This document shows, one piece after another, positions 27,402 through 45,890 of a DNA stretch of 64,000 nt (its first letter is position 1; every line of letters begins with the position of its first letter). Both the position numbers and the translations under genes were made by a program. The stretch lies in NCBI RefSeq assembly GCF_058153355.1, contig NZ_CM177019.1; one strand, 5' to 3'. The notes under the pieces were generated by a model. It was not told the DNA's origin, ran no database searches, and saw only the letters and a list, made by a program, of their open reading frames with translations.

Positions 27402-28427
27402 TTGAGTTTGATAATCTCACTTACCTCCACGGTAAACCGCAAGGTACCGGGCTGCTGAAAGCCAATCCGGAAGACTTTGTGGTGGTGGAAGATTTGGGCT
27501 TTGAGCCTGATGGTGAAGGTGAGCATATTCTGGTTAGAATCCTCAAAAACGGCTGTAATACCCGTTTTGTGGCGGATGCACTGGCGAAATTCCTGAAAAT
27601 TCATGCCCGTGAAGTCAGCTTCGCTGGGCAAAAAGACAAACATGCTGTTACGGAACAGTGGTTATGCGCTCGCGTGCCAGGCAAAGAGATGCCCGATCTC
27701 AGTGCTTTTCAACTGGAAGGTTGTCAGGTGCTGGAGTATGCGCGGCACAAGCGTAAGCTGCGTTTAGGGGCGCTGAAAGGTAACGCTTTTACCCTGGTAC
27801 TCCGCGAAGTGAGCAATCGTGATGACGTTGAACAACGTCTGATCGATATTTGCGTAAAAGGTGTACCGAACTACTTTGGTGCCCAACGTTTTGGTATTAG
27901 CGGCAGCAACTTGCAGGGTGCGCTGCGCTGGGCGCAAACCCATACTCCGGTGCGTGATCGCAATAAACGGAGTTTTTGGTTGTCGGCAGCCCGCAGTGCG
28001 TTGTTTAATCAGATTGTTGCTGAGCGCCTCAAAAAAGCAGACGTTAATCAAGTTGTTGACGGCGATGCGCTACAATTAGCCGGACGTGGTAGCTGGTTTG
28101 TTGCAACCACCGAAGAACTGGCGGAATTACAGCGTCGCGTCAACGATAAAGAGCTGATGATTACTGCTGCATTGCCGGGCAGTGGCGAATGGGGAACTCA
28201 GCGTGAAGCGCTGGCATTCGAACAAGCAGCTGTCGCCGAAGAAACTGAATTGCAAGCCTTACTGGTGCGCGAAAAAGTTGAAGCCGCGCGCAGAGCGATG
28301 CTGCTGTATCCGCAACAATTAAGCTGGAACTGGTGGGATGACGTCACCGTAGAAATCCGTTTCTGGCTTCCGGCAGGCAGTTTTGCGACCAGCGTTGTCA
28401 GGGAACTTATCAACACAACAGGTGATT

Positions 28428-28447
<20 letters not shown>
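27398..28447 (+). CDS. truD: tRNA pseudouridine13 synthase
   Basis: 349 aa ORF. Confidence 0.9.
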
Positions 28448-29809
<1,362 letters not shown>

Positions 29810-29948
29810 AACGTGAGGAAATACCTGGATTTTTCCTGGTTATTTTGCCGCAGGTCAGCGTATCGTGAACATCTTTTCCAGTGTTCAGTATGGTGCCTTG
29901 CACGGTAATTATGTCACTGGTTATTAACCAATTTTTCTTGGGGGATAA

Positions 29949-31088
29949 ATGAGCGCGGGAAGCCCAAAATTCACCGTTCGCCGCATTGCGGCTTTGTCAC
30001 TGGTTTCGCTATGGCTGGCAGGCTGTTCTGACACTTCAAATCCACCGGCACCGGTCAGCTCCGTTAATGGCAATGCGTCTGCAAACACCAATTCTGGTAT
30101 GTTGATTACGCCGCCGCCGAAAATGGGGACGACGTCTACAACGCAGCAACCGCAAATTCAGCCGGTACAGCAGCCACAAATTCAATCTGCACAACAACCG
30201 CAAATCCAGCCGGTGCAGCCAGTTGCTCAGCCGCCGGTACAGATGGAAAACGGACGCATCGTCTACAACCGTCAGTATGGGAACATTCCGAAAGGCAGTT
30301 ATAGCGGCAGTACATACACCGTGAAAAAAGGCGACACACTTTTCTATATCGCCTGGATTACTGGCAATGATTTCCGTGACCTTGCTCAGCGCAACAATAT
30401 TCAGGCACCATACGCGCTGAATGTAGGTCAGACCTTACAGGTGGGTAATGCTTCCGGTACGCCAATCACTGGTGGAAATGCCATTACCCAGGCCGATGCA
30501 GCAGAGCAAGGAGTTGTGATCAAGCCTGCACAAAATTCCACCGTTGCTGTTGCGTCGCAACCGACAATTACGTATTCTGAGTCTTCGGGTGAACAGAGTG
30601 CTAACAAAATGTTGCCGAACAACAAGCCAACTGGGACCACGGTCACAGCGCCTGTAACGGTACCAACAGCAAGCACAACCGAGCCGACTGTCAGCAGTAC
30701 ATCAACCAGTACGCCTATCTCCACCTGGCGCTGGCCGACTGAGGGCAAAGTGATCGAAACTTTTGGTGCTTCTGAGGGGGGCAACAAGGGGATTGATATC
30801 GCGGGCAGCAAAGGACAGGCAATTATCGCGACCGCAGATGGCCGCGTTGTTTATGCTGGTAACGCGCTGCGCGGCTACGGTAATCTGATTATCATCAAAC
30901 ATAATGATGATTACCTGAGTGCCTACGCCCATAACGACACAATGCTGGTCCGGGAACAACAAGAAGTGAAGGCGGGGCAAAAAATAGCGACTATGGGTAG
31001 CACCGGAACCAGTTCAACACGCTTGCATTTTGAAATTCGTTACAAGGGGAAATCCGTAAACCCGCTGCGCTATTTGCCGCAGCGATAA
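29949..31088 (+). CDS. nlpD: murein hydrolase activator lipoprotein NlpD (LysM + M23 domains)
   Basis: 379 aa ORF; lipobox LAGC, Gln/Pro-rich repeats, LysM and peptidase-M23-like C-terminus. Confidence 0.9.
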
Positions 31089-31150
31089 ATCGGCGGAACC
31101 AGGCTTTTGCTTGAATGTTCCGTCAAGGGATCACGGGTAGGAGCCACCTT

Positions 31151-32143
31151 ATGAGTCAGAATACGCTGAAAGTTCATGATTTAAATGAAGATGCGGAATT
31201 TGATGAGAACGGAGTTGAGGTTTTTGACGAAAAGGCCTTAGTAGAAGAGGAACCCAGTGATAACGATTTGGCCGAAGAGGAACTGTTATCGCAAGGGGCC
31301 ACACAGCGTGTGTTGGACGCGACTCAGCTTTACCTTGGTGAGATTGGTTATTCACCACTGTTAACGGCCGAAGAAGAAGTTTATTTTGCGCGTCGCGCAC
31401 TGCGAGGAGATGTTGCCTCCCGCCGCCGGATGATCGAGAGTAACTTACGTCTGGTGGTAAAAATTGCCCGCCGTTATGGCAATCGTGGTCTGGCTTTGCT
31501 GGATCTTATCGAAGAGGGCAACCTGGGGCTGATCCGCGCGGTAGAGAAGTTTGACCCGGAACGTGGTTTCCGCTTCTCAACATACGCAACCTGGTGGATT
31601 CGCCAGACGATCGAACGGGCGATTATGAACCAAACCCGTACTATTCGTTTGCCGATTCACATCGTAAAGGAGCTGAACGTTTACCTGCGAACCGCACGTG
31701 AGTTGTCCCATAAGCTGGACCACGAACCAAGTGCGGAAGAGATCGCAGAGCAGCTGGATAAGCCAGTTGATGACGTCAGCCGTATGCTTCGTCTTAACGA
31801 GCGCATTACCTCGGTAGACACCCCGCTGGGTGGAGATTCCGAAAAAGCGTTGCTGGACATCCTGGCCGATGAAAAAGAAAACGGCCCGGAAGATACCACG
31901 CAAGATGACGATATGAAACAAAGCATCGTCAAATGGCTGTTCGAACTGAACGCCAAACAGCGTGAAGTACTGGCACGTCGATTCGGTTTGCTGGGGTACG
32001 AAGCGGCAACACTGGAAGATGTAGGTCGTGAAATTGGCCTCACCCGTGAACGTGTTCGCCAGATTCAGGTTGAAGGCCTGCGCCGTTTGCGCGAAATCCT
32101 GCAAACGCAGGGGCTGAATATCGAAGCGTTGTTCCGCGAATAA
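31151..32143 (+). CDS. rpoS: RNA polymerase sigma factor RpoS (sigma-38), apparently intact
   Basis: 330 aa from [22 protein letters not shown] with no internal stop; ORF-track start 31115 is an upstream extension. Confidence 0.95.
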
Positions 32144-32157
32144 GTAAGCATCTGTTA

Positions 32158-32195
32158 GAAAGGCCAGTCTCTTATGAGGCTGGCCTTTTTCTTTT
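32158..32195 (+). terminator. rho-independent terminator of rpoS
   Basis: aggccag-tctcttatgagg-ctggcct stem-loop followed by ttttcttttg. Confidence 0.7.
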
Positions 32196-32263
32196 GTATG
32201 GGGAGTTGGTGTGTTTCGTCGCCTGGATAAGACACGTCAGCGTCCCATCCGGCAATCAACATC

Positions 32264-32671
32264 CTATTTGCTCATCATCTTGCGCACCAGCTGCATAAAC
32301 AGCTCCTGCTCTTCTCCACTCAAACGCCCCAAAAATTCCTCATCCACACTGTCGCCAATCGGTATCGCCGCAGCAAGTACCTTTTCTCCTTCGGCAGTCA
32401 GCCAGACAAAGCGTCGCCGCTTATCAGCGGTGTCATGTTCACGTCTGACTAAGCCACGATTTTCCATTCTTGCCAACATTTCTGCCAGCGTTGCTTTGGT
32501 GCTGACGGCTGCTTCCATCAGTGCCACCTGTTCGATACCAGGTTTATCAGCAATGGCGCGCATCACCGCGTACTGTGGTTTGGTCAGGTCAGGTAACTCG
32601 TGCTGCCAGCGGGCCGTATGCTGCTGAAAAAGCTGTCGTAACTGATGGAACGCTTTATTTCGTAACGCCAT
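32264..32671 (-). CDS. MarR-family transcriptional regulator, divergent from the decarboxylase operon
   Basis: 135 aa ORF; assignment by reading the translation, no domain search run. Confidence 0.75.
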   Translation of the reverse strand: MALRNKAFHQLRQLFQQHTARWQHELPDLTKPQYAVMRAIADKPGIEQVALMEAAVSTKATLAEMLARMENRGLVRREHDTADKRRRFVWLTAEGEKVLAAAIPIGDSVDEEFLGRLSGEEQELFMQLVRKMMSK

Positions 32672-32787
32672 GTAAACTCCGGGCTAATTCTCTGTCGCTA
32701 TCATAGCGGTTTTTCAGTGACGAAGAAGATGTTGTTACTTTTCAATCCTTGCCGCTGTGGAAATGAAGGAGTATGCTAATAATAACG

Positions 32788-32799
32788 TTCGTATACGAA
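32788..32799. promoter_or_regulatory. perfect 12-bp palindrome TTCGTATACGAA in the MarR/decarboxylase divergent promoter region (candidate operator)
   Basis: Self-complementary 12-mer located 19-30 bp upstream of the UbiX-like start codon. Confidence 0.3.
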
Positions 32800-32817
32800 C
32801 AATTAAGAGAGTAAGCA

Positions 32818-33411
32818 ATGAAACTGATCGTCGGGATGACAGGGGCTACCGGTGCGCCTCTTGGTGTGGCATTACTGCAAGCGCTGCGGGAGATGCCGAA
32901 TGTCGAGACTCATCTGGTGATGTCGAAGTGGGCGAAAACCACTATTGAACTGGAAACGCCTTACAGCGCTCGCGATGTTGCCGCCCTCGCTGACTTCAGC
33001 CATAACCCGGCGGATCAGGCTGCGACCATCTCTTCCGGCTCCTTTCGTACCGACGGCATGATCGTTATTCCATGCAGTATGAAAACGCTCGCCGGTATCC
33101 GCGCTGGTTACGCCGATGGTCTCGTAGGGCGCGCGGCGGACGTCGTGCTCAAAGAAGGCCGCAAACTGGTGCTGGTGCCGCGTGAAATGCCGCTTAGCAC
33201 CATCCATCTCGAAAATATGCTCGCACTTTCGCGCATGGGCGTGGCGATGGTGCCGCCGATGCCTGCCTTTTATAACCATCCCGAAACGGTAGATGACATT
33301 GTCCACCACGTGGTAGCCCGCGTGCTGGATCAATTTGGCCTCGAACATCCTCACGCCAGGCGCTGGCAAGGGTTGCCGCAGGCCCGGAATTTTTCTCAGG
33401 AGAATGAATAA
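32818..33411 (+). CDS. UbiX/Pad1-family flavin prenyltransferase (decarboxylase subunit B; EcdB-like)
   Basis: 197 aa ORF; MKLIVGMTGATGAPLG flavoprotein motif. Confidence 0.85.
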   Translation: MKLIVGMTGATGAPLGVALLQALREMPNVETHLVMSKWAKTTIELETPYSARDVAALADFSHNPADQAATISSGSFRTDGMIVIPCSMKTLAGIRAGYADGLVGRAADVVLKEGRKLVLVPREMPLSTIHLENMLALSRMGVAMVPPMPAFYNHPETVDDIVHHVVARVLDQFGLEHPHARRWQGLPQARNFSQENE

Positions 33412-34838
33412 TGGCATTTGATGATTTACGCAGCTTCTTACAGGCGCTTGATGACCACGGCCAGTTACTGAAAATCAGCGAAGAGGTGAACGCGGAACCG
33501 GATCTGGCAGCCGCTGCCAACGCCACCGGGCGTATCGGCGACGGCGCGCCCGCGCTGTGGTTTGATAATATTCGCGGCTTTATCGATGCCCGCGTGGCGA
33601 TGAACACCATCGGCTCCTGGCAGAACCACGCGATTTCCCTCGGGCTGCCACCGAACACACCGGTTAAAAAACAGATTGATGAGTTTATCCGCCGCTGGGA
33701 TAACTTTCCCATTGCCCCGGAACGCCGCGCCAATCCTGCCTGGGCGCAGAACACCGTCGATGGTGACGAGATCAACCTGTTCGATATTCTGCCACTGTTT
33801 CGTTTAAACGATGGCGATGGCGGTTTCTATCTCGACAAAGCGTGCGTGGTTTCCCGCGATCCGCTCGATCCGGATAACTTCGGCAAGCAGAACGTCGGCA
33901 TCTATCGCATGGAAGTGAAGGGTAAGCGTAAGCTCGGCCTGCAACCGGTGCCGATGCACGATATCGCCCTGCATCTGCATAAAGCGGAAGAACGTGGTGA
34001 AGATTTGCCAATTGCCATCACGCTGGGTAACGATCCGATCATCACCCTGATGGGCGCCACCCCGCTGAAATATGATCAATCGGAGTACGAAATGGCGGGC
34101 GCGCTACGCGAAAGCCCGTACCCGATCGCCACCGCCCCGCTGACCGGTTTTGATGTGCCGTGGGGTTCAGAAGTGATCCTCGAAGGGGTTATCGAAAGCC
34201 GCAAACGTGAAATCGAAGGGCCGTTCGGTGAGTTTACCGGGCACTACTCCGGTGGGCGCAACATGACCGTAGTGCGCATCGATAAAGTCTCTTACCGCAC
34301 CAAACCGATTTTTGAATCGCTCTATCTCGGTATGCCGTGGACCGAAATCGACTACCTGATGGGGCCTGCCACCTGCGTGCCGCTTTACCAGCAGTTGAAA
34401 GCCGAGTTCCCGGAAGTGCAGGCGGTGAACGCTATGTACACCCACGGCCTGCTGGCGATTATCTCCACCAAAAAACGCTATGGCGGCTTTGCCCGCGCAG
34501 TGGGCCTGCGTGCGATGACCACGCCGCACGGTCTGGGTTATGTGAAGATGGTGATTATGGTCGATGAAGACGTTGACCCGTTCAACCTGCCGCAGGTGAT
34601 GTGGGCGCTCTCGTCGAAAGTGAACCCGGCAGGGGATCTGGTGCAGTTGCCGAATATGTCAGTACTGGAACTCGACCCTGGCTCAAGCCCGGCGGGGATC
34701 ACCGATAAGCTGATTATCGACGTCACCACGCCTGTCGCCCCGGACAACCGTGGTCACTACAGCCAGCCGGTGGTGGACTTACCGGAAACCAAAGCCTGGG
34801 CTGAAAAACTGACCGCTATGCTGGCCGCACGTAAATAA
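33411..34838 (+). CDS. UbiD-family non-oxidative aromatic acid decarboxylase (subunit C; EcdC-like)
   Basis: 475 aa ORF; assignment from recalled UbiD-family similarity. Confidence 0.85.
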   Translation: MAFDDLRSFLQALDDHGQLLKISEEVNAEPDLAAAANATGRIGDGAPALWFDNIRGFIDARVAMNTIGSWQNHAISLGLPPNTPVKKQIDEFIRRWDNFPIAPERRANPAWAQNTVDGDEINLFDILPLFRLNDGDGGFYLDKACVVSRDPLDPDNFGKQNVGIYRMEVKGKRKLGLQPVPMHDIALHLHKAEERGEDLPIAITLGNDPIITLMGATPLKYDQSEYEMAGALRESPYPIATAPLTGFDVPWGSEVILEGVIESRKREIEGPFGEFTGHYSGGRNMTVVRIDKVSYRTKPIFESLYLGMPWTEIDYLMGPATCVPLYQQLKAEFPEVQAVNAMYTHGLLAIISTKKRYGGFARAVGLRAMTTPHGLGYVKMVIMVDEDVDPFNLPQVMWALSSKVNPAGDLVQLPNMSVLELDPGSSPAGITDKLIIDVTTPVAPDNRGHYSQPVVDLPETKAWAEKLTAMLAARK

Positions 34839-34848
34839 GGAGAACAAG

Positions 34849-35085
34849 ATGATTTGTCCACGTTGTGCCGATGAAAAGATTGAAGTGATGGCGAAATCGC
34901 CGGTGAAAAATGTCTGGACGGTCTACCAGTGCCAGCATTGCCTCTATACATGGCGCGATACCGAACCGCTGCGCCGCACCAGCCGCGAACATTATCCCGA
35001 AGCGTTCCGCATGACGCAGAAAGATATTGATGACGCGCCGATGGTGCCGAGCATTCCGCCGCTGCTGGCGGCAGATAAGCGCTAA
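34849..35085 (+). CDS. small zinc-ribbon subunit of the hydroxyarylic acid decarboxylase (subunit D; EcdD-like)
   Basis: 78 aa ORF with CPRC...CQHC cysteine pairs, immediately downstream of the UbiD-like gene. Confidence 0.7.
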   Translation: MICPRCADEKIEVMAKSPVKNVWTVYQCQHCLYTWRDTEPLRRTSREHYPEAFRMTQKDIDDAPMVPSIPPLLAADKR

Positions 35086-35126
35086 TAAAAAAGGGCCGGG
35101 TAGAGGCTTTGCTTTACCCGGCCACG

Positions 35127-35783
35127 TTATTTGATTTTATAAAACGACAGCCGCCCGCTTTTCGGCGATCCGGTATCAATATAAATCTGGTTTGCGAACG
35201 TCTGGATGTTATCAAACATCATATGACCGAAGATAAAGCAGTCGGCGCCGTTTATTTCCTGTAACTCGCCTTTGAGCGATTTCAGTACGCGATCAACAGG
35301 CCAGAGCAATTCTCTCTCCGCTATTTCTTTGCCAAAGAGATATTCATTCCCCGGATAATCTGCATGCGCGATGACATATTTTATTATGTCGTTAGTGATT
35401 TCAACAATATGCGGAAGATTATGAAAACGTAGCAACAGGTCTATTGCTTCTTTTTGTTCCGTATCACTTAACTCAAAGAACCAGTCGCCACCGCTGGCAA
35501 GCCACATATTGCCATCGCCGGTCGCGAACGCATCCAATGCCATCGCTTCATGGTTGCCTTTAACCGATGTAAACCAGGGCTGGTTTAGCAGGCGCAGCAC
35601 GTTAAGACTCTCCGGCCCACGATCAATATTATCGCCGACAGAAATAAGTAAGTCGGTTTCAGGACAAAAAGATAATTGGTGCAGGCGGGATTGCAATAAT
35701 TGATAATCTCCATGAATGTCACCTACCACCCAGATATGGCGATAATGAGTGGTTTCAATTTTACGATAACGAATATCTGGCAT
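35127..35783 (-). CDS. pphB: serine/threonine protein phosphatase 2
   Basis: 218 aa from MPDIRYRKIET; GDIHGD and GNHE metallophosphatase motifs; ORF-track start 35921 is an upstream extension. Confidence 0.85.
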   Translation of the reverse strand: MPDIRYRKIETTHYRHIWVVGDIHGDYQLLQSRLHQLSFCPETDLLISVGDNIDRGPESLNVLRLLNQPWFTSVKGNHEAMALDAFATGDGNMWLASGGDWFFELSDTEQKEAIDLLLRFHNLPHIVEITNDIIKYVIAHADYPGNEYLFGKEIAERELLWPVDRVLKSLKGELQEINGADCFIFGHMMFDNIQTFANQIYIDTGSPKSGRLSFYKIK

Positions 35784-35805
35784 TGATCGCGCTCCGTAAA
35801 AAGAA

Positions 35806-36669
35806 TTATTCCGGCTTATGAAACAGAATGGTGTTAATCTCGACATCAGTGATTGCGCCAGCTGCTTCTGCTTTATGTAACCAGTATAGCGCTTTGTCTT
35901 TATCCACACCGTTCTCATCAATGCCCCAGGCGTAAATGCGGCCTAAGGATATTTGGGCATGAGGTAAATCTTGTGCGGCAGCTTTTTCAAACCAGTATTT
36001 AGCCTGTTTAATATCAGCGGGTACACCATCGCCCGTTAAAAAGAGCGTACCATAATTATACTGACCAATTTTGTCGCCTTTTTCTGCCGCAAACTTAAGA
36101 TATGTCGCAGCCTGGAGATAATTCTTTTCCTCGGCTGCGAGGAGCCCTAAATTAGCATGTGCAATGGGGTTTCCCTTTTGCGCCGCTTTAACGAGCCAGG
36201 ATTTTGCTTTATCGATATCATGGAACTTCTCTGGACCAAACTGATAGATATTGGCACAGTTTATCTGTGCCTGAAGATTTCCCTGTCTGGCTGATTTCTC
36301 ATACCAGTGAATGGCATTCTGGTAATCCGGCGGTGTGTCTTCATCTCCCTGATGATATAAAAGCCCGACATAAAATTGCGCAATGTCATCTCCCTGACTG
36401 GCTGCCAGATTAAACCAGTAAAATGCTTTATCGCGGTTTTTAACCCCCGTTACCCCTTCCTGGTAAACAATTCCCAATCCTTTTTGCGCAGATTTATCGC
36501 CGCCTTGTGCCCTTGCGATGATATTTTTCAGGTTTTCCTGTTTGTTTTTAGAATAACGTTGTTCAGCCTGGATAAGATCATCAAGCGAGGGTTCTTTGGC
36601 ACAATAACCTGTAAGAGGAAAATGCAAAATTAGTAGAGTAAATAAAATTAACTTTTTCATACATTCCAT
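35806..36669 (-). CDS. Sel1-repeat (TPR-like) secreted protein
   Basis: 287 aa ORF with signal peptide and repeated Sel1-type motifs (A..Y/W..A..G...AQ..LG..Y..G); not recalled at this position in K-12. Confidence 0.7.
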   Translation of the reverse strand: MECMKKLILFTLLILHFPLTGYCAKEPSLDDLIQAEQRYSKNKQENLKNIIARAQGGDKSAQKGLGIVYQEGVTGVKNRDKAFYWFNLAASQGDDIAQFYVGLLYHQGDEDTPPDYQNAIHWYEKSARQGNLQAQINCANIYQFGPEKFHDIDKAKSWLVKAAQKGNPIAHANLGLLAAEEKNYLQAATYLKFAAEKGDKIGQYNYGTLFLTGDGVPADIKQAKYWFEKAAAQDLPHAQISLGRIYAWGIDENGVDKDKALYWLHKAEAAGAITDVEINTILFHKPE

Positions 36670-36768
36670 GAATTAATTGTTGAGTCCTGATTTTAATTAT
36701 ACTCCATCTGTTATTGAGCCAATAATAATTAATAATCCCCGATGGGAAGGCCATCGGGAATTATGCCA

Positions 36769-39330
36769 TTACAGCAAACTCTTCAAGCGATAAATCCACT
36801 CCAGCGCCTGACGCGGAGTCAGTGAATCCGGGTCGAGATTTTCCAGTGCTTCGACCGCTGGCGAGGTTTCTTCCGGTACTGACAGCAAAGACATTTGCGT
36901 ACCATCCACTTGCGTAGCGGCGGCGTTCGGCGAAATGCTTTCCAGTTCACGCAGTTTTTGCCGTGCGCGCTTAATAACCTCTTTTGGCACGCCCGCCAGA
37001 GCAGCAACCGCCAGGCCGTAACTTTTGCTCGCCGCGCCATCCTGCACGCTATGCATAAAGGCAATGGTATCACCGTGCTCCAGCGCATCAAGATGCACGT
37101 TGGCGACGCCTTCCATTTTCTCCGGCAGTTGAGTCAGTTCAAAGTAGTGGGTAGCAAACAACGTCAACGCTTTAATCTTATTCGCCAGATTTTCAGCGCA
37201 CGCCCATGCCAGCGACAGACCATCGTAAGTGGACGTTCCGCGCCCAATCTCATCCATCAACACCAGGCTGTACTCCGTGGCGTTATGCAGAATATTAGCG
37301 GTTTCGGTCATCTCCACCATAAAGGTTGAACGCCCGGATGCCAGATCGTCAGCCGCGCCCACACGGGTAAAGATACGGTCAATCGGGCCAATCTCGACTT
37401 TTTGCGCCGGTACGTAGCTGCCGATATAGGCCATCAGCGCAATCAGTGCGGTCTGGCGCATATAGGTACTTTTACCGCCCATGTTCGGACCGGTGATGAT
37501 CAACATGCGACGCTGCGGCGACAGGTTCAGCGGGTTAGCGATAAACGGCTCATTCAGTACCTGTTCAACCACCGGATGGCGACCTTCGGTAATGCGAATG
37601 CCCGGTTTATCAATGAAGGTCGGGCAGGTGTAGTTCAGGGTATAGGCCCGTTCCGCCAGGTTTACCAGTACGTCGAGTTCTGCCAGTGCGCTCGCGCTCT
37701 GTTGCAACGCTTCCAGATGCGGCAACAACAGGTCGAACAACTCTTCATAAAGCTGTTTTTCCAGTGCCAGCGCTTTACCTTTCGAGGTGAGTACTTTGTC
37801 TTCATACTCTTTTAGCTCTGGAATAATGTAGCGTTCGGCGTTTTTCAGCGTCTGGCGACGCATATAGTTGATGGGTGCCAGATGGCTTTGTCCACGGCTA
37901 ATCTGAATGTAATAACCATGCACCGCGTTAAAGCCGACTTTCAGCGTGTCCAGGCCGGTACGTTCACGCTCGCGAACTTCCAGACGCTCCAGATAATCTG
38001 TCGCGCCGTCAGCCAGCGCTCGCCACTCATCCAGCTCTTCGTTATAGCCTGATGCGATAACACCACCGTCGCGTACCAGCACCGGCGGTGTGTCGATGAT
38101 TGCTCGCTCCAGCAGATCGCGCAGCTCTGCAAACTCGCCCATTTTCTCACGCAGCGCCTGTACCGGTGCACTAGCGACATTTTCTAACTGCGCACGCAGC
38201 TCCGGCAGTTGCTGGAAAGCGTGACGCATACGGGCCAGATCGCGTGGGCGGGCAGTCCGTAAAGCCAGACGTGCCAGAATACGTTCCAGGTCGCCGACCT
38301 GACGCAGTACCGGCTGCAGCTCAGCGGTGAAATCCTGCAATGCGCCAATAGTTTGCTGGCGCTCAAGCAACACGCGGGTATCGCGCACTGGCATATGCAG
38401 CCAGCGTTTCAGCATTCGACTCCCCATCGGCGTTACAGTGCAGTCGAGCACGGAAGCCAGCGTGTTTTCCGCACCGCCCGCCAGGTTCTGGGTAATTTCC
38501 AGGTTACGACGCGTCGCGGCATCCATAATGATGCTGTCCTGCTCACGTTCCATAGTGATAGAACGAATATGCGGCAGAGTCGTACGTTGAGTATCTTTCG
38601 CATACTGCAACAGACAACCGGCGGCACAAAGTCCGCGCGGCGCGTTCTCGACGCCAAAACCGACCAGATCGCGAGTGCCAAATTGTAGATTCAACTGCTG
38701 GCGCGCGGTGTCGATTTCAAACTCCCACAGCGGGCGACGGCGCAAGCCGCGACGACCTTCAATCAGCGACATTTCAGCAAAATCTTCTGCATACAGCAGT
38801 TCCGCCGGATTAGTGCGTTGCAGTTCTGCCGCCATCGTTTCGCGGTCAGCCGGTTCGCTCAGGCGAAAACGACCAGAACTGATATCCAGCGTCGCATAGC
38901 CGAATCCTTTGCTGTCCTGCCAGATAGCAGCCAGCAGGTTGTCCTGACGTTCCTGCAACAGCGCTTCATCGCTGATGGTGCCCGGCGTAACGATACGCAC
39001 AACTTTGCGCTCGACCGGCCCTTTGCTGGTCGCCGGATCGCCAATCTGTTCACAAATAGCAACGGACTCGCCCTGATTCACCAGTTTGGCGAGATAGTTT
39101 TCCACCGCATGGTAGGGAATCCCCGCCATCGGGATCGGCTCTCCCGCCGAAGCGCCGCGTTTGGTCAGTGAAATATCCAGCAGTTGTGACGCACGTTTTG
39201 CGTCGTCATAAAACAGTTCGTAAAAGTCACCCATCCGGTAGAACAGCAGGATCTCGGGATGCTGGGCTTTCAGCTTGAGATACTGCTGCATCATTGGCGT
39301 ATGGGCGTCAAAATTTTCTATTGCACTCAT
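36769..39330 (-). CDS. mutS: DNA mismatch repair protein MutS, apparently intact
   Basis: 853 aa ORF; [10 protein letters not shown] Walker A. Confidence 0.95.
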
Positions 39331-39576
39331 GGGGTTATGTCCGGTTCCCTGATATTAAATGGGGTGTGATGGTTTTTATTTTCGTTGTAATCACATAAGG
39401 CGCACATGATACCGGAGTTAATCATTTCAGGGGAAGAAGCGAACGGCGAGTTCTTGATGGTGATTCCGGGAAAGATGCTGTTTTGCAGCTTTTGCGTGAT
39501 GCTTATGAAGCAAGTACGCAAAATTGTATCAGTTGGCGACCCCTTCTTCTTCAGAGCCATAGTCCCCTTTCAAATT

Positions 39577-39599
39577 AAGTTGTAATATAAATACATCTT
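39577..39599. promoter_or_regulatory. candidate NsrR operator upstream of ygbA
   Basis: aagttgtaatataaatacatctta resembles the NsrR inverted-repeat consensus; ygbA is a recalled NsrR regulon member. Confidence 0.45.
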
Positions 39600-39616
39600 A
39601 ATGAGGTGGAGGCAGC

Positions 39617-39970
39617 ATGTCCGGCAAGCGTATCTCTCGTGAAAAACTGACGATTAAAAAAATGATCGATCTTTATCAAGCGAAATGCCCGCAGGCGTCA
39701 GCGGAGCCGGCGCATTACGAGGCATTGTTTGCTTATGCGCAAAAACGGCTGGATAAATGTGTGTTCGGCGAAGACAAACCCGCCTGTAAGCAGTGTCCGG
39801 TGCACTGTTACCAGTCTGCAAAGCGTGAAGAGATGAAACAGATTATGCGTTGGGCCGGGCCGCGCATGCTGTGGCGTCATCCGATCCTAACCGTACGCCA
39901 TCTCATTGATGACAAGCGTCCGGTGCCGGAGTTGCCAGAAAAATATCGCCCGAAAAAACCTCGTGAATAG
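39617..39970 (+). CDS. ygbA: nitrous-oxide-stimulated-promoter family protein YgbA
   Basis: 117 aa Cys-rich ORF. Confidence 0.85.
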   Translation: MSGKRISREKLTIKKMIDLYQAKCPQASAEPAHYEALFAYAQKRLDKCVFGEDKPACKQCPVHCYQSAKREEMKQIMRWAGPRMLWRHPILTVRHLIDDKRPVPELPEKYRPKKPRE

Positions 39971-39974
39971 TATA

Positions 39975-39996
39975 CCGGACAGGCAGATCTGTCCGG
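39975..39996. terminator. hairpin between the convergent ygbA and fhlA genes (possible bidirectional terminator)
   Basis: ccggacag-gcagat-ctgtccgg, 8-bp stem; no strong T-tract. Confidence 0.35.
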
Positions 39997-40008
39997 TACC
40001 TCATGCAG

Positions 40009-42084
40009 TTAAACCAATGCCGATTTATCAATCCCCAGTCGTTTCATCCGTGATAGCAGTGTGGTGCGTTTTAGTCCCAGACGTTGCGCCGCGCCTTTCG
40101 GCCCGGCAACCACGCCGTTAGTCTCTTTTAATACACGCACAATTAGCTGATATTCATCTTCGCCCTCCTGAGCGACGACCGTTGCAGTCGGCGGCGTTTT
40201 AGGTTCCGGTAAAGCAATATCAGGCAATGACAGCTGCAGCACGTTGCCACGTGTCAGCAATACCGCGCGCTCAATGACGTTTTCCAGCTCGCGTACGTTA
40301 CCTGGCCACTCCATATTGCTCAACGCGCGCAACGTTTCGGCAGGAATGCTGTCGATATTACGCCCCAGACGGCGGGCAATTTTAAAAGTAAAGGATTTTG
40401 CCAGCAGCGGAATATCTTCCGGACGCTCGCGTAGTGGCGGCAGGTGGATCGGGAATACGTTCAGGCGGTAATAGAGATCGCTACGGAACTCGCGGTCGGC
40501 AACCATTTTTTTCAGATCGCGGTTAGTCGCGGCAATTAAACGCACGTCCGTCTGTATAATTTTATTACTGCCGAGACGTTCAAACTCCTGTTCCTGTAAT
40601 ACACGCAGCAACTTCGGTTGTAACTCCAGCGGCATATCACCCACTTCATCGAGGAACAGGGAGCTTTTATCCGCCAGTTCAAAACGACCGATACGCTGGG
40701 CGCTGGCTCCGGTAAACGCACCACGCTCATGGCCAAACAGATCGCTTTCCAACAATCCGGCAGGCATCGCCGCGCAGTTCATTTTTACCATGCGGCGATT
40801 ATTACGCCCACTGAGATTATGGATCGCGCGGGCAATCAGCTCTTTACCAGTGCCAGTTTCACCGAGGATCAGAACTGTACTGTCACTTTGTGCCACCATT
40901 TCAACTTGTTTAAGCACGCTGTACATGGCTTCACTGCGACCAATAATCTCGCCAAATTCACTATCAACATTGTTGAGCTGCTCGGTCAGGGCGAGATTTT
41001 CATCAACCAGTCGTTCTTTCAGACGATGAATTTCCTGATAGGCAAGGGCGTTATCGACAGCGATTGCCACACGTTCAGCAATCTGGCGCAGTAAATTCAG
41101 ATTGGTCGTGGTAAACACTTTCTCTTCGCATTGCGCCAGTTTCAGCACGCCCAGCATGGTGTCGCCAGACATCAGCGGTAATAGGCACAAGGTTTGAATC
41201 TGGTTGCCCCAGGTGTCGAACAACATGCGTTCGTAAGGGGCTAAATTATCTCGCTCGTGGAGATTAATCAGCAGCATCTCTTTGCTTTTAAACACGCGTT
41301 CGGTGAGGGTTCCTGCTTCATCGACTTCGCTCTGTTCGTGAGCGGGATGCTGTTTATCAAGATAGTGAGTGGAGTAGATGTTGAGTTTGTTTTTACGGTG
41401 GCTGCGTAAGACGATGCTGATATCGTCAATGTCGAAATAGTAATGGATTTCTTTGGCGACTTCGCTGACCAGTTCGTCCATATCCAGGCGAGAAAGCACC
41501 GCGTTGGTGATGGCAACCAGGATGCGGAAGTTATCGCGTTCCCGGCATAACAACTCATAGTCGACATTATTGACGACGCGGCTCTGGATTTGTTCGGTGA
41601 CGACAGAAATGATCTGCGTAAAAGTTTGCAGGCGATTGAACTCTTTTTCACTCCACGGGCGATCGTCATAACGAATAAATTCACAGCCACCAAAAATATG
41701 CCCTTCCGCCGCCAGTGGCATCAGGCAATAGTGACCAAATTTGGGGTATAGCCCACCAGCGGCCAGCTGCGGCCAGGTTTCACAAAATTCTTCGTAACTG
41801 CAATGCAGTGTATCAGGGCGCGACAAAATGCTGCGCACCGGACCGTGTGCCAGAACAGTTTCGTCTTCATAATTTATGGGGGTGTCTTTTTCACGCGACG
41901 CGTAATAAGACGCACGTTGAGTCTGCGCTTGCCACAACACAATAGCTGCATTGTCGGCGAGCGCAGAACGCTTTACCAATTGCGAAAGAGCCTCACACAG
42001 CGAGGCCAGATCGGGCTGCTGCAATAGTGTCCGAGTGATGTCGAACAACCCTTGTTGTCCGAGATCACTCATCGGTGTATATGA
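40009..42084 (-). CDS. fhlA: formate hydrogenlyase transcriptional activator FhlA (sigma-54-dependent)
   Basis: 692 aa from MSYTPMSDLGQ; AAA+ sigma-54 activator motifs (GETGTGKE, GAFTGA) and C-terminal HTH. Confidence 0.95.
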   Translation of the reverse strand, partial: SYTPMSDLGQQGLFDITRTLLQQPDLASLCEALSQLVKRSALADNAAIVLWQAQTQRASYYASREKDTPINYEDETVLAHGPVRSILSRPDTLHCSYEEFCETWPQLAAGGLYPKFGHYCLMPLAAEGHIFGGCEFIRYDDRPWSEKEFNRLQTFTQIISVVTEQIQSRVVNNVDYELLCRERDNFRILVAITNAVLSRLDMDELVSEVAKEIHYYFDIDDISIVLRSHRKNKLNIYSTHYLDKQHPAHEQSEVDEAGTLTERVFKSKEMLLINLHERDNLAPYERMLFDTWGNQIQTLCLLPLMSGDTMLGVLKLAQCEEKVFTTTNLNLLRQIAERVAIAVDNALAYQEIHRLKERLVDENLALTEQLNNVDSEFGEIIGRSEAMYSVLKQVEMVAQSDSTVLILGETGTGKELIARAIHNLSGRNNRRMVKMNCAAMPAGLLESDLFGHERGAFTGASAQRIGRFELADKSSLFLDEVGDMPLELQPKLLRVLQEQEFERLGSNKIIQTDVRLIAATNRDLKKMVADREFRSDLYYRLNVFPIHLPPLRERPEDIPLLAKSFTFKIARRLGRNIDSIPAETLRALSNMEWPGNVRELENVIERAVLLTRGNVLQLSLPDIALPEPKTPPTATVVAQEGEDEYQLIVRVLKETNGVVAGPKGAAQRLGLKRTTLLSRMKRLGIDKSALV

Positions 42085-42160
42085 CATTTTGTTCTTCCAG
42101 GAAAGCACCGCAAAGCGGTGCAAAAGGTCATTGACTAACTATAGGAGATTTAGAATTTTA

Positions 42161-43171
42161 TTAGCATATACGCGGAAGCGGTTCGGCGTGTGGTAAATCG
42201 AGGGTTCGTTTCACGCCATACAGACCGGCAAGACGAACACCTTTACGTTCCACCACTTCACCAATCAGCGCCGCGTCTTTCCCCAGTGGATGGGAATGTA
42301 ACGCCGCCAGCACTTGCTCTGCTGCGTTGCGTTCAACGGCGATCACCAGTTTGCCTTCGTTGGCAAAGTTAAGGGCGTCCAGCCCCAGCAGTTCGCAAAC
42401 GCCGCGCACGGCAGGTTTAACCGGCAGTGCCGCTTCTGAAATTTCAATACCACAACCGCAGGCTGCCGCGAACTCATGAACTACCGCGTTCACTCCACCA
42501 CGGGTGGCGTCACGCAGTGCCTTCACACCGGGAATATCACGCAGCGTCTGGATGAGCGGCGTCAGCACTGCGCAGTCGCTGACCAGTTCGCCATCCAGCC
42601 CCAGTTGCTCGCGCAGATTAAGAATAGTTGCTCCGTGGTCGCCGAGAGTTCCACTCACCAGCAGAACATCGCCTGCGGTTAGCGTCTGTGCGCCCCAGTG
42701 AATATTCGCCGGGATCGCGCCCATGCCAGCGGTGTTGATAAACAGTTTATCTGCCGCGCCGCGTTGCACCACTTTAGTGTCGCCTGTAACGATGGCAATG
42801 CCTGCCGCGCGGGCGGTTTCTGCCATGCTGGTCACCACGGCTTTTAGCGTCTCCATCGGCAATCCCTCTTCGAGGATAAAGCCACAAGAGAGATAGCGCG
42901 GAATAGCGCCACTGACCGCAACGTCATTCGCGGTGCCACAAATCGCCAGCTTGCCAATATTGCCACCAGGAAAGAACAGCGGGTCGATGACGTAGCTGTC
43001 GGTGGAGAACGCCAGACGGTCGCCTTCTGCCACCAGCTGCGCCAGCTCAAGGCGCGCCTGGTCTTCCTGTTCTGCCAGCCACGGATTGGCAAAAGCTTCC
43101 ATAAACAGGCTGTTGATTAATTGCTGCATCGCCTGGCCGCCGCTGCCGTGGGCGAGTTGGATATTATTCAC
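42161..43171 (-). CDS. hypE: hydrogenase maturation protein HypE
   Basis: 336 aa ORF. Confidence 0.9.
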   Translation of the reverse strand: MNNIQLAHGSGGQAMQQLINSLFMEAFANPWLAEQEDQARLELAQLVAEGDRLAFSTDSYVIDPLFFPGGNIGKLAICGTANDVAVSGAIPRYLSCGFILEEGLPMETLKAVVTSMAETARAAGIAIVTGDTKVVQRGAADKLFINTAGMGAIPANIHWGAQTLTAGDVLLVSGTLGDHGATILNLREQLGLDGELVSDCAVLTPLIQTLRDIPGVKALRDATRGGVNAVVHEFAAACGCGIEISEAALPVKPAVRGVCELLGLDALNFANEGKLVIAVERNAAEQVLAALHSHPLGKDAALIGEVVERKGVRLAGLYGVKRTLDLPHAEPLPRIC

Positions 43172-44289
43172 GCTTCACTCTCCTGCTGACGATACTGATA
43201 CCACGCGGCGCATGCTCCCTCGGAGGAAACCATCAGCGCGCCAAACGCGGTTTGAGGATTACAGGTGTTACCAAACAGCGGGCATTGATGCGGCTTACAT
43301 TTGCCCGTCAATACTTCGCCACAACGTGCGCGCGGGTCATCGCAAACCTGCTGCGGTGCCGGGCGGAAATGCGCTTCGGCGTCAAATCGTTGATAGTCTG
43401 GCGTCAGGTGTACACCAGAAGATTCAATCACGCCTAAGCCGCGCCATTCGCTGTCGCCGTTGACACAGAACACATCCGCAATCGCCTGTTGCGCCAGCAG
43501 GTTACCGGCATCTGGCACCACCCGCCGATACTGATTTTCTACCTTGCTGTGGGCCGCTATTTTCTGCTCCACCAGCATGACCACGCCTTGTAGTAGATCA
43601 AGCGGTTCGAATCCAGCAACCACCAGAGGACGATGAAAATCACTGGCGATAAAATTATAGGCGTCGGTGCCGATAACCATACTGACGTGGCCCGGCGCGA
43701 GGAACGCATCGATACCGTTATCCGGCTGTTCCAGCAAACTGCGTAGCGTTGGGATCAGCGTAATATGCTGGCAGAAAAAGTAAAAATTTTGCACATCGCG
43801 GGCTTTCGCCTGTTGCAGAGTGATGGCCGTCGTCGGCATGGTGGTTTCAAACCCTAAGCCGAAGAACACCACTTTACGAGTTGGATTCTCCTGCGCCAGT
43901 TTCAACGCATCCATTGGCGAGTAAACGATGCGAACATCGGCACCGCGCGCTTTTGCCTGTAACAGCGACCCTTGTTTCCCTGGTACGCGCATGGCGTCGC
44001 CAAAGGTACAGAAGATGACTTCCGGATGGCTGGCAATCTCCACGCAAGTGTCGATTCTTCCCATCGGCAGTACACATACCGGGCAACCCGGACCGTGGAT
44101 AAACTCGACGTTTTCCGGCAGCAACTGGTCGAGGCCGAATTTAAAAATGGCGTGGGTATGACCGCCGCACACTTCCATAATCCGCAGAGGGCGTTCGGCG
44201 GTGTAAGAGAGATGTGAAGCACGTTCGCGTAGATGCTCAATTAACTGCATCACCTGTTCCGGCGCGCGATATTCATCAACAAAACGCAT
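43168..44289 (-). CDS. hypD: hydrogenase maturation protein HypD
   Basis: 373 aa ORF; CGxH and CPVC motifs. Confidence 0.9.
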   Translation of the reverse strand: MRFVDEYRAPEQVMQLIEHLRERASHLSYTAERPLRIMEVCGGHTHAIFKFGLDQLLPENVEFIHGPGCPVCVLPMGRIDTCVEIASHPEVIFCTFGDAMRVPGKQGSLLQAKARGADVRIVYSPMDALKLAQENPTRKVVFFGLGFETTMPTTAITLQQAKARDVQNFYFFCQHITLIPTLRSLLEQPDNGIDAFLAPGHVSMVIGTDAYNFIASDFHRPLVVAGFEPLDLLQGVVMLVEQKIAAHSKVENQYRRVVPDAGNLLAQQAIADVFCVNGDSEWRGLGVIESSGVHLTPDYQRFDAEAHFRPAPQQVCDDPRARCGEVLTGKCKPHQCPLFGNTCNPQTAFGALMVSSEGACAAWYQYRQQESEA

Positions 44290-44561
44290 TATTTTTCCTC
44301 GCCATACAACAGCGCGCCGACATCCGGCTCAACGTCAAACATGTTTTGTAAGGCGTCGAGGGTGTCGCGCGCTTCGGCTTCATTAATTACGCTCATGGCA
44401 AAGCCAACGTGAACCAGTACCCACTGGCCCACGCGTGGCTGACCGTTTTCATCGCAGCTGCCGACTAACGTTAGGTCGACGTCGCGCTGAATACCGCAGA
44501 CGTCGACTTTCGCCTGGTTGCCGTCAATGGTGCGGATCTGGCCGGGAACGCCTATGCACAT
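44289..44561 (-). CDS. hypC: hydrogenase maturation chaperone HypC
   Basis: 90 aa from MCIGVPGQI. Confidence 0.9.
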
Positions 44562-45424: not shown

Positions 45425-45427
45425 CGC

Positions 45428-45778: not shown

Positions 45779-45809
45779 ATCGCCTCCCATTAACTATTGC
45801 CAGCTACAA

Positions 45810-45824
45810 GCAATAATTGTGCCA
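45810..45824 (-). promoter_or_regulatory. candidate sigma-54 promoter for hypA
   Basis: Minus-strand TGGCAC-aattat-TGC, about 30 bp upstream of hypA. Confidence 0.45.
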
Positions 45825-45850
45825 GTGTTGATTATCCCTAAAGTGAATAA

Positions 45851-45890
45851 TGTCGATGATGTCGAAATGACACGTCGACACGGCGACGAA
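45851..45890. promoter_or_regulatory. FhlA upstream activating sequence (UAS) in the hypA/hycA divergent region
   Basis: Repeated tgtcgaaatgaca-type motifs, also seen at 46501-46558. Confidence 0.45.

What the first reader, a model, noticed from the sequence alone, without database searches (positions are those of the whole stretch)
35127..36669. Sel1-repeat secreted protein co-oriented with pphB, next to mutS
A 287 aa signal-peptide-bearing protein made of Sel1/TPR-like repeats lies 23 bp upstream of the pphB start codon, probably in one operon. I do not recall a gene here in K-12, where pphB abuts mutS. Sel1-repeat proteins often mediate protein-protein interactions, and pairing with a Ser/Thr phosphatase is unusual.
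Basis: partly seen in the sequence, partly recalled or inferred. Interest (0 to 1): 0.4.

Follow-up and report, generated by a model that had tools for sequence, protein, structure and literature searches.

The report
Rare exported Sel1-repeat gene beside mutS
Between mutS and the phosphatase gene pphB sits a real but uncharacterised gene for an exported Sel1-repeat (protein-binding) protein that only about 4% of sequenced E. coli carry; it is an ordinary accessory gene in a known recombination hot spot, and nothing ties its function to the phosphatase.

Summary
On the minus strand the order is mutS, a 284-aa ORF (35806-36660; the conserved start is ATG 36660, not 36669), a 22-nt gap, then pphB (35127-35783).

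- **What the protein is:** Pfam Sel1 E=9.7e-43. AlphaFold gives six Sel1-like repeats with capping helices. The N-terminus has signal-peptide form and no conserved lipobox.
- **Presence in E. coli:** K-12, O157 and about 96% of 5,426 complete genomes lack it, with pphB 105 bp from mutS. This allele is in 11 genomes, including cryptic clade I strain EC42405. A second allele at the same site (54-59% aa identity) is in 182, including ST69 strain EC6868.
- **Orthologues elsewhere:** found only in Citrobacter and Pseudocitrobacter, always directly after mutS.
- **Selection:** dN/dS is 0.1-0.2, but the protein diverges far faster than PphB or MutS.
- **Expression:** a mutS terminator, a conserved -10 box and no terminator before pphB support co-transcription. 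This is inferred, not shown.
- **Link to PphB:** Citrobacter kept the gene but lost pphB, and most E. coli show the reverse. PphB has no signal peptide. A functional partnership is therefore unsupported.

Most likely it is a periplasmic binder of an unknown partner. It is a new member of a known kind, of low to moderate interest.

The parts
36769..39330 (-). mutS, the upstream neighbour (context). Its 3' end belongs to the divergent haplotype.
   Evidence: The ORF is 853 aa. It is 98.4-98.8% nt identical to mutS of cryptic clade I strains and about 94% to K-12/O157. Identity to K-12 is lowest (91-93% in 300-nt bins) over the last ~760 nt next to the Sel1 gene, against 94-96% further in (same trend).
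36732..36764 (-). Terminator-like hairpin just after the mutS stop codon
   Evidence: 14-pair stem followed by a T-rich tail; inverted repeat I5. A hairpin sits at the same place in K-12, O157, allele B, Pseudocitrobacter and Citrobacter.
36696..36701 (-). Putative -10 box (TATAAT) of a sel1(-pphB) promoter, 35 nt before the start codon
   Evidence: Read from the sequence. A G(A/C)GTA(T/A)AAT motif is aligned at about the same distance from the ATG in all seven sel1 loci from three genera, although the rest of the spacer differs. No good -35 hexamer exists, and the simple consensus scan did not list the site. Its function is inferred.
35806..36660 (-). Sel1-like-repeat protein gene (284 aa including the signal peptide; mature form about 263-266 aa, about 29.5 kDa, pI about 6.0)
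   Evidence: The identical protein is in NCBI as 'sel1 repeat family protein / tetratricopeptide repeat protein [Escherichia coli]'. GC is 42.9%, against 55-57% in mutS and ecdC.
36598..36660 (-). Signal-peptide coding part (residues 1 to about 21)
   Evidence: The basic, hydrophobic and cleavage regions are kept in all orthologues. pLDDT is below 50 for residues 1-20. There is no conserved lipobox: the cysteine is absent in C. enshiensis and in allele B.
35860..36501 (-). Six Sel1-like repeats (residues 54-267). Repeat 4 is a short 32-residue unit.
   Evidence: Twelve paired helices in the model. The degenerate DNA repeat family D1 reflects the repeats.
35784..35805 (-). 22-nt spacer between the sel1 stop and the pphB start, with GGAG at 35792-35795
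   Evidence: Read from the sequence. No terminator-like site lies here. The spacer is 22-24 nt in allele B and in Pseudocitrobacter.
35127..35783 (-). pphB (PrpB), a PPP-family Ser/Thr phosphatase with no signal peptide
   Evidence: Pfam Metallophos. NCBIfam PRK09968 at 454 bits against a 332 cut-off. Catalytic motifs are present. It is a mosaic gene: its first 110 nt are only 76% identical to K-12, and in the four genomes compared that segment follows the presence or absence of sel1.
35094..35123 (.). Hairpin shared by the convergent ecdD and pphB genes (bidirectional terminator)
   Evidence: 12-pair stem; inverted repeat I8. The reverse strand is followed by CTTTTTTATT.

Best explanation
This is a lineage-restricted accessory gene for a soluble, Sec-exported protein that most likely stays in the periplasm. 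The protein consists only of six Sel1-like repeats, which form a curved alpha-solenoid. Like other proteins of this fold, it most likely binds another protein in the cell envelope, acting as an adaptor or inhibitor. The likely binding surface is the groove lined by the first helices of repeats 3-6, which are the best-conserved part of the family. The partner is unknown.

The gene is probably transcribed from its own promoter just after the mutS terminator, and the transcript probably runs on into pphB. The order mutS-sel1-pphB is old and is shared with Citrobacter and Pseudocitrobacter. In Escherichia it exists as two very different alleles, moved in and out by homologous recombination within the mutS-rpoS hot spot. 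Most E. coli lack it.

Shown here: the gene, the fold class, the export-signal features, the distribution, purifying selection and the mosaic flanks. Inferred: periplasmic location, protein binding through the groove, the promoter and co-transcription.
For: - Repeat family and fold: Pfam Sel1 E=9.7e-43. The model is confident (pLDDT 89) with 12 paired helices. The best structural matches are all Sel1-like-repeat proteins: EsiB 4BWR (TM 0.74, 32% id), Oxalobacter Sel1 proteins, LceB, LpnE and HcpC.
- Export: signal-peptide features are conserved in all orthologues and no other domain is present.
- Real, constrained gene: dN/dS is 0.11-0.21. 180 of 182 allele-B copies are uninterrupted and full-length at >=99% identity. 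Allele A covers the full query in all 11 genomes, and it is annotated as an intact 855-nt CDS in the five I opened.
- Where conservation lies: the first helices of repeats 3-6 have 7-10 invariant residues of 13. Those of repeats 1-2 have 2-3 of 13.
- Fast divergence: alleles A and B share 54-59% aa identity, while the adjacent PphB shares 90% and MutS 99.8%.
- Conserved position after mutS in three genera.
- Transcription signals: mutS terminator, conserved -10 box, 22-24 nt spacer, no internal terminator, and a terminator after pphB.
- Recombination: the pphB and mutS 3' ends are mosaic, with breakpoints that follow the presence or absence of sel1 within cryptic clade I. Allele B is 92.8% nt identical to Pseudocitrobacter corydidari, although mutS is only 85.7%.
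- Both sel1 and pphB have low GC (43-44%) against 55-57% in the flanks.
Against: - No experiment or expression data exists for this gene, and no paper mentions it.
- No signal-peptide predictor was run. The most obvious cleavage site (after A21) has a disfavoured Tyr at -3.
- The promoter has only a -10 box, and the consensus scan did not report it.
- The gene is dispensable. It is absent from about 96% of E. coli. A frameshifted form of this allele (170-aa fragment) is recorded on 54 contigs, more than the 20 contigs carrying the exact intact protein. Two allele-B copies are interrupted; in the one I opened the interruption is an IS3 element.
- 'Binds a protein' is a family-level inference that names no partner.
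Confidence: 0.6

Rival explanations
1. Orphan type VI secretion immunity protein. The periplasmic Sel1-repeat protein would bind and neutralise a toxin injected by competing bacteria, as do Pseudomonas PA5086-PA5088 (against the phospholipase PldB) and Klebsiella Sel1E (against VgrG4).
For: Sel1-repeat proteins are documented T6SS immunity proteins, and orphan copies have been proposed for E. coli (PMC7108748; PMC7216683). The export signal, small repeat-only build, patchy strain distribution, two very divergent alleles and fast protein divergence all fit an arms-race gene. PA5087, PA5088 and PA5086 appear among the structural matches.
Against: The immunity proteins match far worse than generic Sel1 proteins (TM 0.47-0.51, 17-18% identity) and did not appear in the PDB sequence search. 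No effector, VgrG, PAAR or Rhs gene lies next to the gene in any locus I opened. The T6SS genes near mutS in C. enshiensis are on the other side, about 5 kb away. The groove residues are conserved across three genera, which suggests a conserved partner rather than a changing one. Two remote homologues I checked have unrelated neighbours.
Confidence: 0.12
2. Two-compartment signalling pair with PphB. The periplasmic Sel1-repeat protein would bind a sensor-kinase periplasmic domain or a misfolded envelope protein, as ExoR does with ExoS. The co-transcribed cytoplasmic phosphatase PphB would adjust the same pathway (Cpx / htrA).
For: The genes share a strand with a conserved 22-24 nt spacing and probably share a transcript in E. 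coli and Pseudocitrobacter. PrpA/PrpB were described as modulators of the CpxRA response to extracytoplasmic protein misfolding (Missiakas & Raina 1997, as cited in PMC6213207 and PMC6610125). ExoR is a periplasmic Sel1-repeat regulator, and its model gives a weak hit.
Against: Each gene persists without the other. Citrobacter has sel1 without pphB, and most E. coli and Salmonella have pphB without sel1. The ExoR model scores 28.9 bits against a 450 cut-off. The two proteins evolve at very different rates: dN between alleles A and B is 0.355 for the Sel1 protein and 0.056 for PphB.
Confidence: 0.1
3. EsiB-like host-interaction factor. The protein would reach the cell surface and bind a host molecule such as secretory IgA.
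For: EsiB (c5321, PDB 4BWR) is the best sequence and structure match (E=1.5e-53; TM 0.74). A UniRef entry names the Pseudocitrobacter orthologue EsiB. The best-aligned stretch begins at EsiB's mapped IgA-binding peptide. Allele B is in the uropathogenic lineage ST69, represented by EC6868.
Against: Identity is only about 32% and is typical of any pair of Sel1 proteins; Oxalobacter and Legionella proteins score almost as well. The locus differs, since esiB lies between ytfP and ppa. The size differs too: 6 repeats in 284 aa, against 11 repeats in a 467-residue solved chain. Only 8 of 17 residues of the IgA-binding peptide match, and the key E251 is Ser here and varies among orthologues. Carriers include bovine, canine and environmental isolates, as well as Citrobacter and an insect-associated Pseudocitrobacter.
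Confidence: 0.1
4. A dispensable leftover. In Escherichia the gene would be a hitch-hiker on imported DNA with no current function, on its way to being lost.
For: It is absent from about 96% of genomes. A frameshifted allele-A form is common in draft genomes. IS insertions occur. Close clade I relatives differ in presence or absence.
Against: dN/dS is 0.11-0.21 over long divergence. 180 of 182 allele-B copies and all examined complete allele-A copies are intact. The position and upstream signals are conserved in three genera.
Confidence: 0.08

Closest known systems
EsiB / c5321 of uropathogenic E. coli CFT073 (PDB 4BWR; PMC3735183, PMC3851747)
   Same: An E. coli accessory protein with a signal peptide, built only of Sel1-like repeats. 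It is the best sequence and structure match. It is also strain-variable and apparently gained or lost by recombination.
   Different: Different locus (ytfP-ppa). EsiB has 11 repeats in a 467-residue solved chain; this protein has 6 repeats in 284 aa. Identity is about 32%. The residue key to IgA binding, E251, is not conserved here. EsiB is linked to phylogroup B2, whereas this gene is in clade I and ST69 (group D) strains.
Periplasmic Sel1-repeat T6SS immunity proteins (P. aeruginosa PA5086/PA5087/PA5088; K. pneumoniae Sel1E, PMC7108748)
   Same: Small repeat-only proteins that act by binding and blocking a partner protein. They are variable between strains.
   Different: No neighbouring effector gene. 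Structural similarity is weak (TM about 0.5, 17-18% identity). No sequence-level hit.
ExoR (Sinorhizobium), MotX (Vibrio), AlgK (Pseudomonas) and MerG: exported Sel1/TPR proteins with defined partners
   Same: The same repeat type and an exported location. Each works by protein-protein contact in the envelope.
   Different: All four NCBIfam equivalog models score far below their cut-offs: ExoR 28.9/450, MotX 52.4/330, AlgK 33.5/700, MerG 76.7/350. The partner systems are not encoded nearby.
The mutS-rpoS polymorphic region of E. coli (Herbelin 2000; Culham & Wood 2000; Ewers 2014, PMC4209514)
   Same: The gene lies in this known mosaic region. The flanking genes (MarR-type regulator, hydroxyarylic acid decarboxylase BCD, pphB) match the published O157-type pattern, and EC42405 has a pattern with the ygb genes.
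   Different: The one study of the region I could read (PMC4209514), which defines patterns I-IV, does not mention a gene between pphB and mutS. Herbelin 2000 was not available, and Culham & Wood 2000 was not looked up.

Membership tests
Sel1-like repeat (SLR) proteins, Pfam PF08238 | Several repeats matching the Sel1 profile above the curated cut-off | tested here: met
   143.5 bits against a 30.7 cut-off, E=9.7e-43, 5 stretches.
Sel1-like repeat (SLR) proteins, Pfam PF08238 | Alpha/alpha solenoid of paired antiparallel helices | tested here: met
   AlphaFold2 pLDDT 89.2 with 12 paired helices plus caps. The top 14 PDB matches are all SLR proteins, with TM up to 0.74. This is a prediction, not a solved structure.
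EsiB (E. coli secretory IgA-binding protein) | Same locus (between ytfP and ppa) and same build (11 repeats, 467-residue solved chain) | tested here: not met
   The gene lies between mutS and pphB and has 6 repeats in 284 aa.
EsiB (E. coli secretory IgA-binding protein) | IgA-binding peptide VLFSQSAEQGNSIAQFR with E251 | tested here: not met
   The aligned stretch is YWFNLAASQGDDIAQFY, with 8 of 17 residues identical. E251 corresponds to Ser, and to S, N, E, I or K among the nine aligned family members.
EsiB (E. coli secretory IgA-binding protein) | Binds secretory IgA | not testable with these tools
   Needs purified protein.
T6SS Sel1-repeat immunity proteins (PA5086-88, Sel1E) | Encoded next to the cognate effector (or recognisably related to one that is) | tested here: not met
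   The neighbours are mutS and pphB in every sel1 locus I opened in E. coli and Pseudocitrobacter, and mutS plus a small secreted-protein gene in Citrobacter. There is no sequence hit to PA5086-88 at E<=0.001.
T6SS Sel1-repeat immunity proteins (PA5086-88, Sel1E) | Structural similarity to known immunity proteins beyond the generic fold | tested here: inconclusive
   TM 0.47-0.51 and 17-18% identity, below the scores of generic Sel1 proteins.
T6SS Sel1-repeat immunity proteins (PA5086-88, Sel1E) | Protects against an effector | not testable with these tools
   Needs competition assays.
ExoR / MotX / AlgK / MerG (NCBIfam equivalogs) | Score at or above the curated equivalog cut-off | tested here: not met
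   Scores against cut-offs are 28.9/450, 52.4/330, 33.5/700 and 76.7/350.
Helicobacter cysteine-rich proteins (Hcp) | A disulfide-forming cysteine pair in each repeat | tested here: not met
   The mature protein has only 1-2 cysteines. Only C135 is invariant.
Bacterial lipoproteins | Lipobox L-[AS]-[GA]-C at the end of the signal peptide | tested here: not met
   The sequence here is LTGYC. The cysteine is missing in C. enshiensis and in allele B / Pseudocitrobacter.
sel1-pphB operon | Same strand, short spacer, no terminator between, and shared promoter and terminator | tested here: met
   The spacer is 22 nt with a GGAG. There is no hairpin between the genes. A -10 box is conserved upstream and a hairpin follows pphB.
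sel1-pphB operon | One transcript covering both genes | not testable with these tools
   No transcript data is available for a carrier strain.
PphB (PrpB) phosphatase (the neighbour) | NCBIfam PRK09968 equivalog cut-off and PPP catalytic motifs | tested here: met
   454.3 bits against a 332 cut-off. GDIHG, GDNIDRG and GNHE are present.

The most novel reading that the evidence does not exclude
sel1 and pphB form a two-compartment signalling cassette. The periplasmic Sel1-repeat protein would sequester a sensor-kinase domain or an envelope ligand, in the manner of ExoR. The co-transcribed cytoplasmic PPP phosphatase would reset the same phospho-relay (Cpx). The two deeply divergent alleles would then be alternative tunings of envelope-stress signalling in particular Escherichia lineages.
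Probability: 0.07. Interest if true: 0.55.

Novelty: new member of a known kind. Interest (0 to 1): 0.22.

Why it matters
The practical value is modest.

- It adds an undescribed presence/absence and two-allele polymorphism to the mutS-rpoS region, which is already used as a typing marker for E. coli lineages.
- It could mark lineages. Allele A is seen in a cryptic clade I strain and allele B in an ST69 uropathogenic strain. How fully each allele tracks its lineage was not tested.
- It shows that pphB in these strains probably depends on a promoter in front of another gene.

If the protein turned out to bind a toxin, a sensor kinase or a host molecule, it would give a function to an exported protein confined to a few medically relevant lineages. 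Nothing here shows that.

Tried and rejected
- **Literature:** searches for this gene found nothing. I tried mutS-rpoS/pphB, Sel1+mutS+rpoS, and four RefSeq protein accessions. Herbelin 2000 could not be read.
- **Species-wide scan:** the scan of 100,044 species representatives found only two loci, in Citrobacter werkmanii and a Pseudocitrobacter MAG. It relied on two peptide patterns, so it may miss divergent copies.
- **Known RNAs:** Rfam found nothing in or near the gene.
- **Phage defence:** PADLOC gave only a meaningless 21-bit hit.
- **Remote homologues:** the contexts of two homologues at 33-34% identity were uninformative.
- **Mobile-element insertion:** I looked for flanking direct repeats and found none. 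The only repeats are the degenerate internal Sel1 units.
- **Lipoprotein:** rejected because there is no conserved lipobox.
- **Hcp-like disulfide protein:** rejected because there are too few cysteines.
- **EsiB orthology:** rejected because locus, size and key residue all differ.
- **Phylogroup typing:** I could not type all 193 carriers. Only EC42405 (clade I, PMC10100065) and EC6868 (ST69, group D, PMC10840416) are placed, from the literature.
Full report
**1. What is at the coordinates**

On the minus strand the window reads mutS (39330-36769), then an ORF listed as 36669-35806 (287 aa), then pphB.
- Every orthologue and the RefSeq annotation of five allele-A genomes start at the second in-frame ATG (36660, MKK...). 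The protein is therefore 284 aa.
- The stop codon is at 35806-35808 and the pphB ATG at 35783. The gap is 22 nt, with a GGAG 8 nt before the pphB start.
- The ORF list extends pphB upstream to a TTG (264 aa). The 218-aa form from ATG 35783 matches the annotation. It passes the NCBIfam PphB equivalog (454 bits against a 332 cut-off). It carries the GDIHG, GDNIDRG and GNHE motifs.

**2. The protein**

- Pfam Sel1 scores 143.5 bits (cut-off 30.7; E=9.7e-43).
- An AlphaFold2 model built on nine family members is confident (pLDDT 89.2, pTM 0.80). It shows two N-terminal helices, six helix-turn-helix repeats (residues 54-267, with repeat 4 a short 32-residue unit) and a C-terminal helix. Only residues 1-20 are of low confidence.
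- Those residues (MKKLILFTLLILHFPLTGYCA) have the form of a Sec signal peptide. The form is kept in all orthologues although the sequence is not. There is no conserved lipobox or cysteine. No dedicated predictor was available, so export is inferred.
- The mature protein is about 29.5 kDa with pI about 6 and only one or two cysteines.
- The best PDB matches by sequence and by fold are generic Sel1-like-repeat proteins: EsiB/c5321 (E=1.5e-53; TM 0.74; 32% identity), Oxalobacter Sel1 proteins, Legionella LceB and LpnE, and HcpC.
- The T6SS immunity proteins PA5086-88 match much less well (TM about 0.5, 17-18% identity).
- No NCBIfam equivalog (MerG, MotX, AlgK, ExoR) comes near its cut-off.

**3. 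Distribution**

- Among 5,426 complete E. coli genomes, this allele (99.5% identity or more) is in 11.
- A second allele is about 64-68% identical in DNA and 54-59% in protein. It sits at exactly the same place in 182 genomes, all at 99% identity or more to each other. Of these, 180 are uninterrupted and two are interrupted; in the one opened (M7424) the interruption is an IS3 element.
- Nearly all other genomes have pphB about 105 bp from mutS with nothing between. This includes K-12, BL21, O157:H7 and O145.
- From the literature, EC42405 (allele A) is a cryptic clade I strain (PMC10100065). EC6868 (allele B) is ST69, phylogroup D (PMC10840416).
- The window's mutS is 98.4-98.8% identical to clade I strains and about 94% to K-12, so the window is probably clade I.
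- The exact 284-aa protein is already in NCBI as 'sel1 repeat family protein' on 20 contigs. A frameshifted form of the same allele (170-aa fragment) is on 54 contigs.
- Outside Escherichia, relatives above 50% identity occur only in Citrobacter (64-68%) and Pseudocitrobacter (54-57%). Everything else is at 35% or below.
- A scan of 100,044 species representatives found only Citrobacter werkmanii and a Pseudocitrobacter MAG.

**4. Context and history**

- In Pseudocitrobacter the order is mutS, sel1, pphB with the same short spacer.
- In Citrobacter it is mutS, sel1, then an unrelated small secreted-protein gene on the other strand. C. enshiensis keeps a 48-codon pphB remnant. So mutS-sel1-pphB is the older order. 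Citrobacter lost pphB and kept sel1.
- In Escherichia the polymorphism is carried by recombination. pphB is a mosaic whose first 110 nt are only 76% identical between the sel1-bearing type and the K-12 type. In the four genomes compared, that segment follows the presence or absence of sel1.
- Clade I strain 2013C-4282 lacks sel1 and has a K-12-type spacer and pphB 5' end, joined to a window-type remainder.
- The mutS 3' end is also more divergent than the rest of the gene.
- Allele B and its pphB are 91-93% identical to Pseudocitrobacter corydidari, although mutS is only 85.7%. This points to exchange between genera.
- No flanking direct repeats suggest a mobile element.
- Both sel1 (42.9% GC) and pphB (44.0%) are AT-rich relative to their flanks at 55-57%.
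- The region is the well-known mutS-rpoS hot spot. The one study of it that I could read describes patterns I-IV and does not mention this gene (PMC4209514).

**5. Selection**

- dN/dS is 0.11-0.21 in every pair where dS is not saturated. The gene has therefore been kept functional over long periods.
- It nevertheless changes fast. dN between alleles A and B is 0.355, against 0.056 for PphB and 0.001 for MutS.
- Invariant residues are concentrated in the first helices of repeats 3-6 (7-10 of 13). Repeats 1-2 have 2-3 of 13, and the caps are poorly conserved.
- In TPR and Sel1 proteins these first helices line the concave groove that usually holds the ligand (general knowledge of the fold). A conserved groove with variable ends suggests one conserved partner.

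**6. Expression signals**

- A strong hairpin follows mutS (36764-36732).
- A TATAAT lies at 36701-36696, 35 nt before the ATG. The motif G(A/C)GTA(T/A)AAT is aligned at about the same distance in all seven sel1 loci from three genera.
- It lacks a good -35 hexamer, and the consensus scan did not list it.
- K-12 has a TATAAT in the corresponding place in front of pphB.
- No hairpin lies between sel1 and pphB. A bidirectional hairpin follows pphB (35094-35123).
- Co-transcription is therefore likely but unproven.

**7. Interpretation**

The best-supported reading is an exported Sel1-repeat protein, probably periplasmic, that binds an unknown protein partner. It is encoded by an accessory gene that happens to share a transcript with pphB.

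A functional partnership with PphB is not supported.
- Each gene persists without the other.
- PphB has no export signal.
- The two proteins evolve at very different rates.

More specific ideas cannot be excluded, but each fails at least one defining test or lacks any positive evidence. These are an orphan T6SS immunity protein, an ExoR-like regulator tied to Cpx through PphB, and an EsiB-like host-binding factor. Details are in the rivals and membership table.

**8. Verdict**

This is a new, uncharacterised member of a well-known protein kind, already annotated generically in databases. Interest is low to moderate.

Noticed in passing
window 36769-39330 (mutS) and the wider stretch 28000-46000: The window's mutS is only about 94% identical (dS about 0.28) to K-12, O157 and an ST69-type strain. 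It is 98.4-98.8% identical to cryptic clade I strains EC42405 and 2013C-4282. No complete RefSeq E. coli genome matches the 18-kb stretch above 98.9%. The window probably comes from Escherichia cryptic clade I.
   Followed up: partly
window 18727-18884 (+): Full-length match to the Rfam sok antitoxin RNA (RF01794, 111.5 bits against a gathering score of 59). This indicates a chromosomal hok/sok-type toxin-antitoxin locus.
   Followed up: no
L008 (Pseudocitrobacter corydidari CP087880) 6001-10430: The sel1-pphB-ecdDCB-marR block is 91-96% identical to E. coli, while the adjacent mutS is only about 85%. The far side of the block is flanked by ROK/amidohydrolase genes instead of rpoS. This points to transfer of the whole block between genera.
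   Followed up: partly
L005 6982-7608 and L009 7111-7641 (Citrobacter), plus L009 7735-7878: In Citrobacter, pphB is replaced by a small gene on the opposite strand with no Pfam match. It encodes a protein with a signal-peptide-like N-terminus. C. enshiensis retains a 48-codon pphB remnant beside it.
   Followed up: partly
Protein cluster of the window's Sel1 protein (P0061, P0062, P0063): A frameshift after Lys152 splits allele A into a 170-aa fragment plus 87- or 119-aa fragments. The 170-aa form is recorded on 54 contigs, more than the 20 contigs with the exact intact protein. The gene is therefore a pseudogene in one sub-lineage.
   Followed up: partly
window 35674-35783 (first 110 nt of pphB); L015 and L022: pphB is a recombination mosaic. 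Its first 110 nt are 76% identical between the sel1-linked type and the K-12 type. Two clade I strains show opposite combinations of 5' and 3' segments.
   Followed up: yes
L011 5654-5758 (K-12 mutS-pphB spacer): The K-12-type spacer contains a 7-bp inverted repeat (CCCTGTA...TACAGGG) that encloses the TATAAT in front of pphB. This hairpin is absent from the sel1-bearing spacer, and its role is unknown.
   Followed up: no
L001 2345-3338 and L002 3282-4278: rpoS is annotated as frameshifted in two of the sel1-carrying genomes (2020CK-00188 and Ecol_316), and my translation of the L002 copy shows an internal stop. The window's rpoS appears intact.
   Followed up: no
L002 12142-12570 compared with window 39971-40008: Allele-B genomes carry a TOBE-domain gene between ygbA and fhlA. 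It is absent from the window and from allele-A genomes. This is another presence/absence difference on the other side of mutS.
   Followed up: no
L015 (EC42405) 2272-8271: EC42405 has the ygbI-ygbN (threonate/tetronate) block inserted between ecdD and pphB, and still keeps sel1-pphB next to mutS. The sel1-pphB pair therefore stays together whatever lies to its other side.
   Followed up: partly
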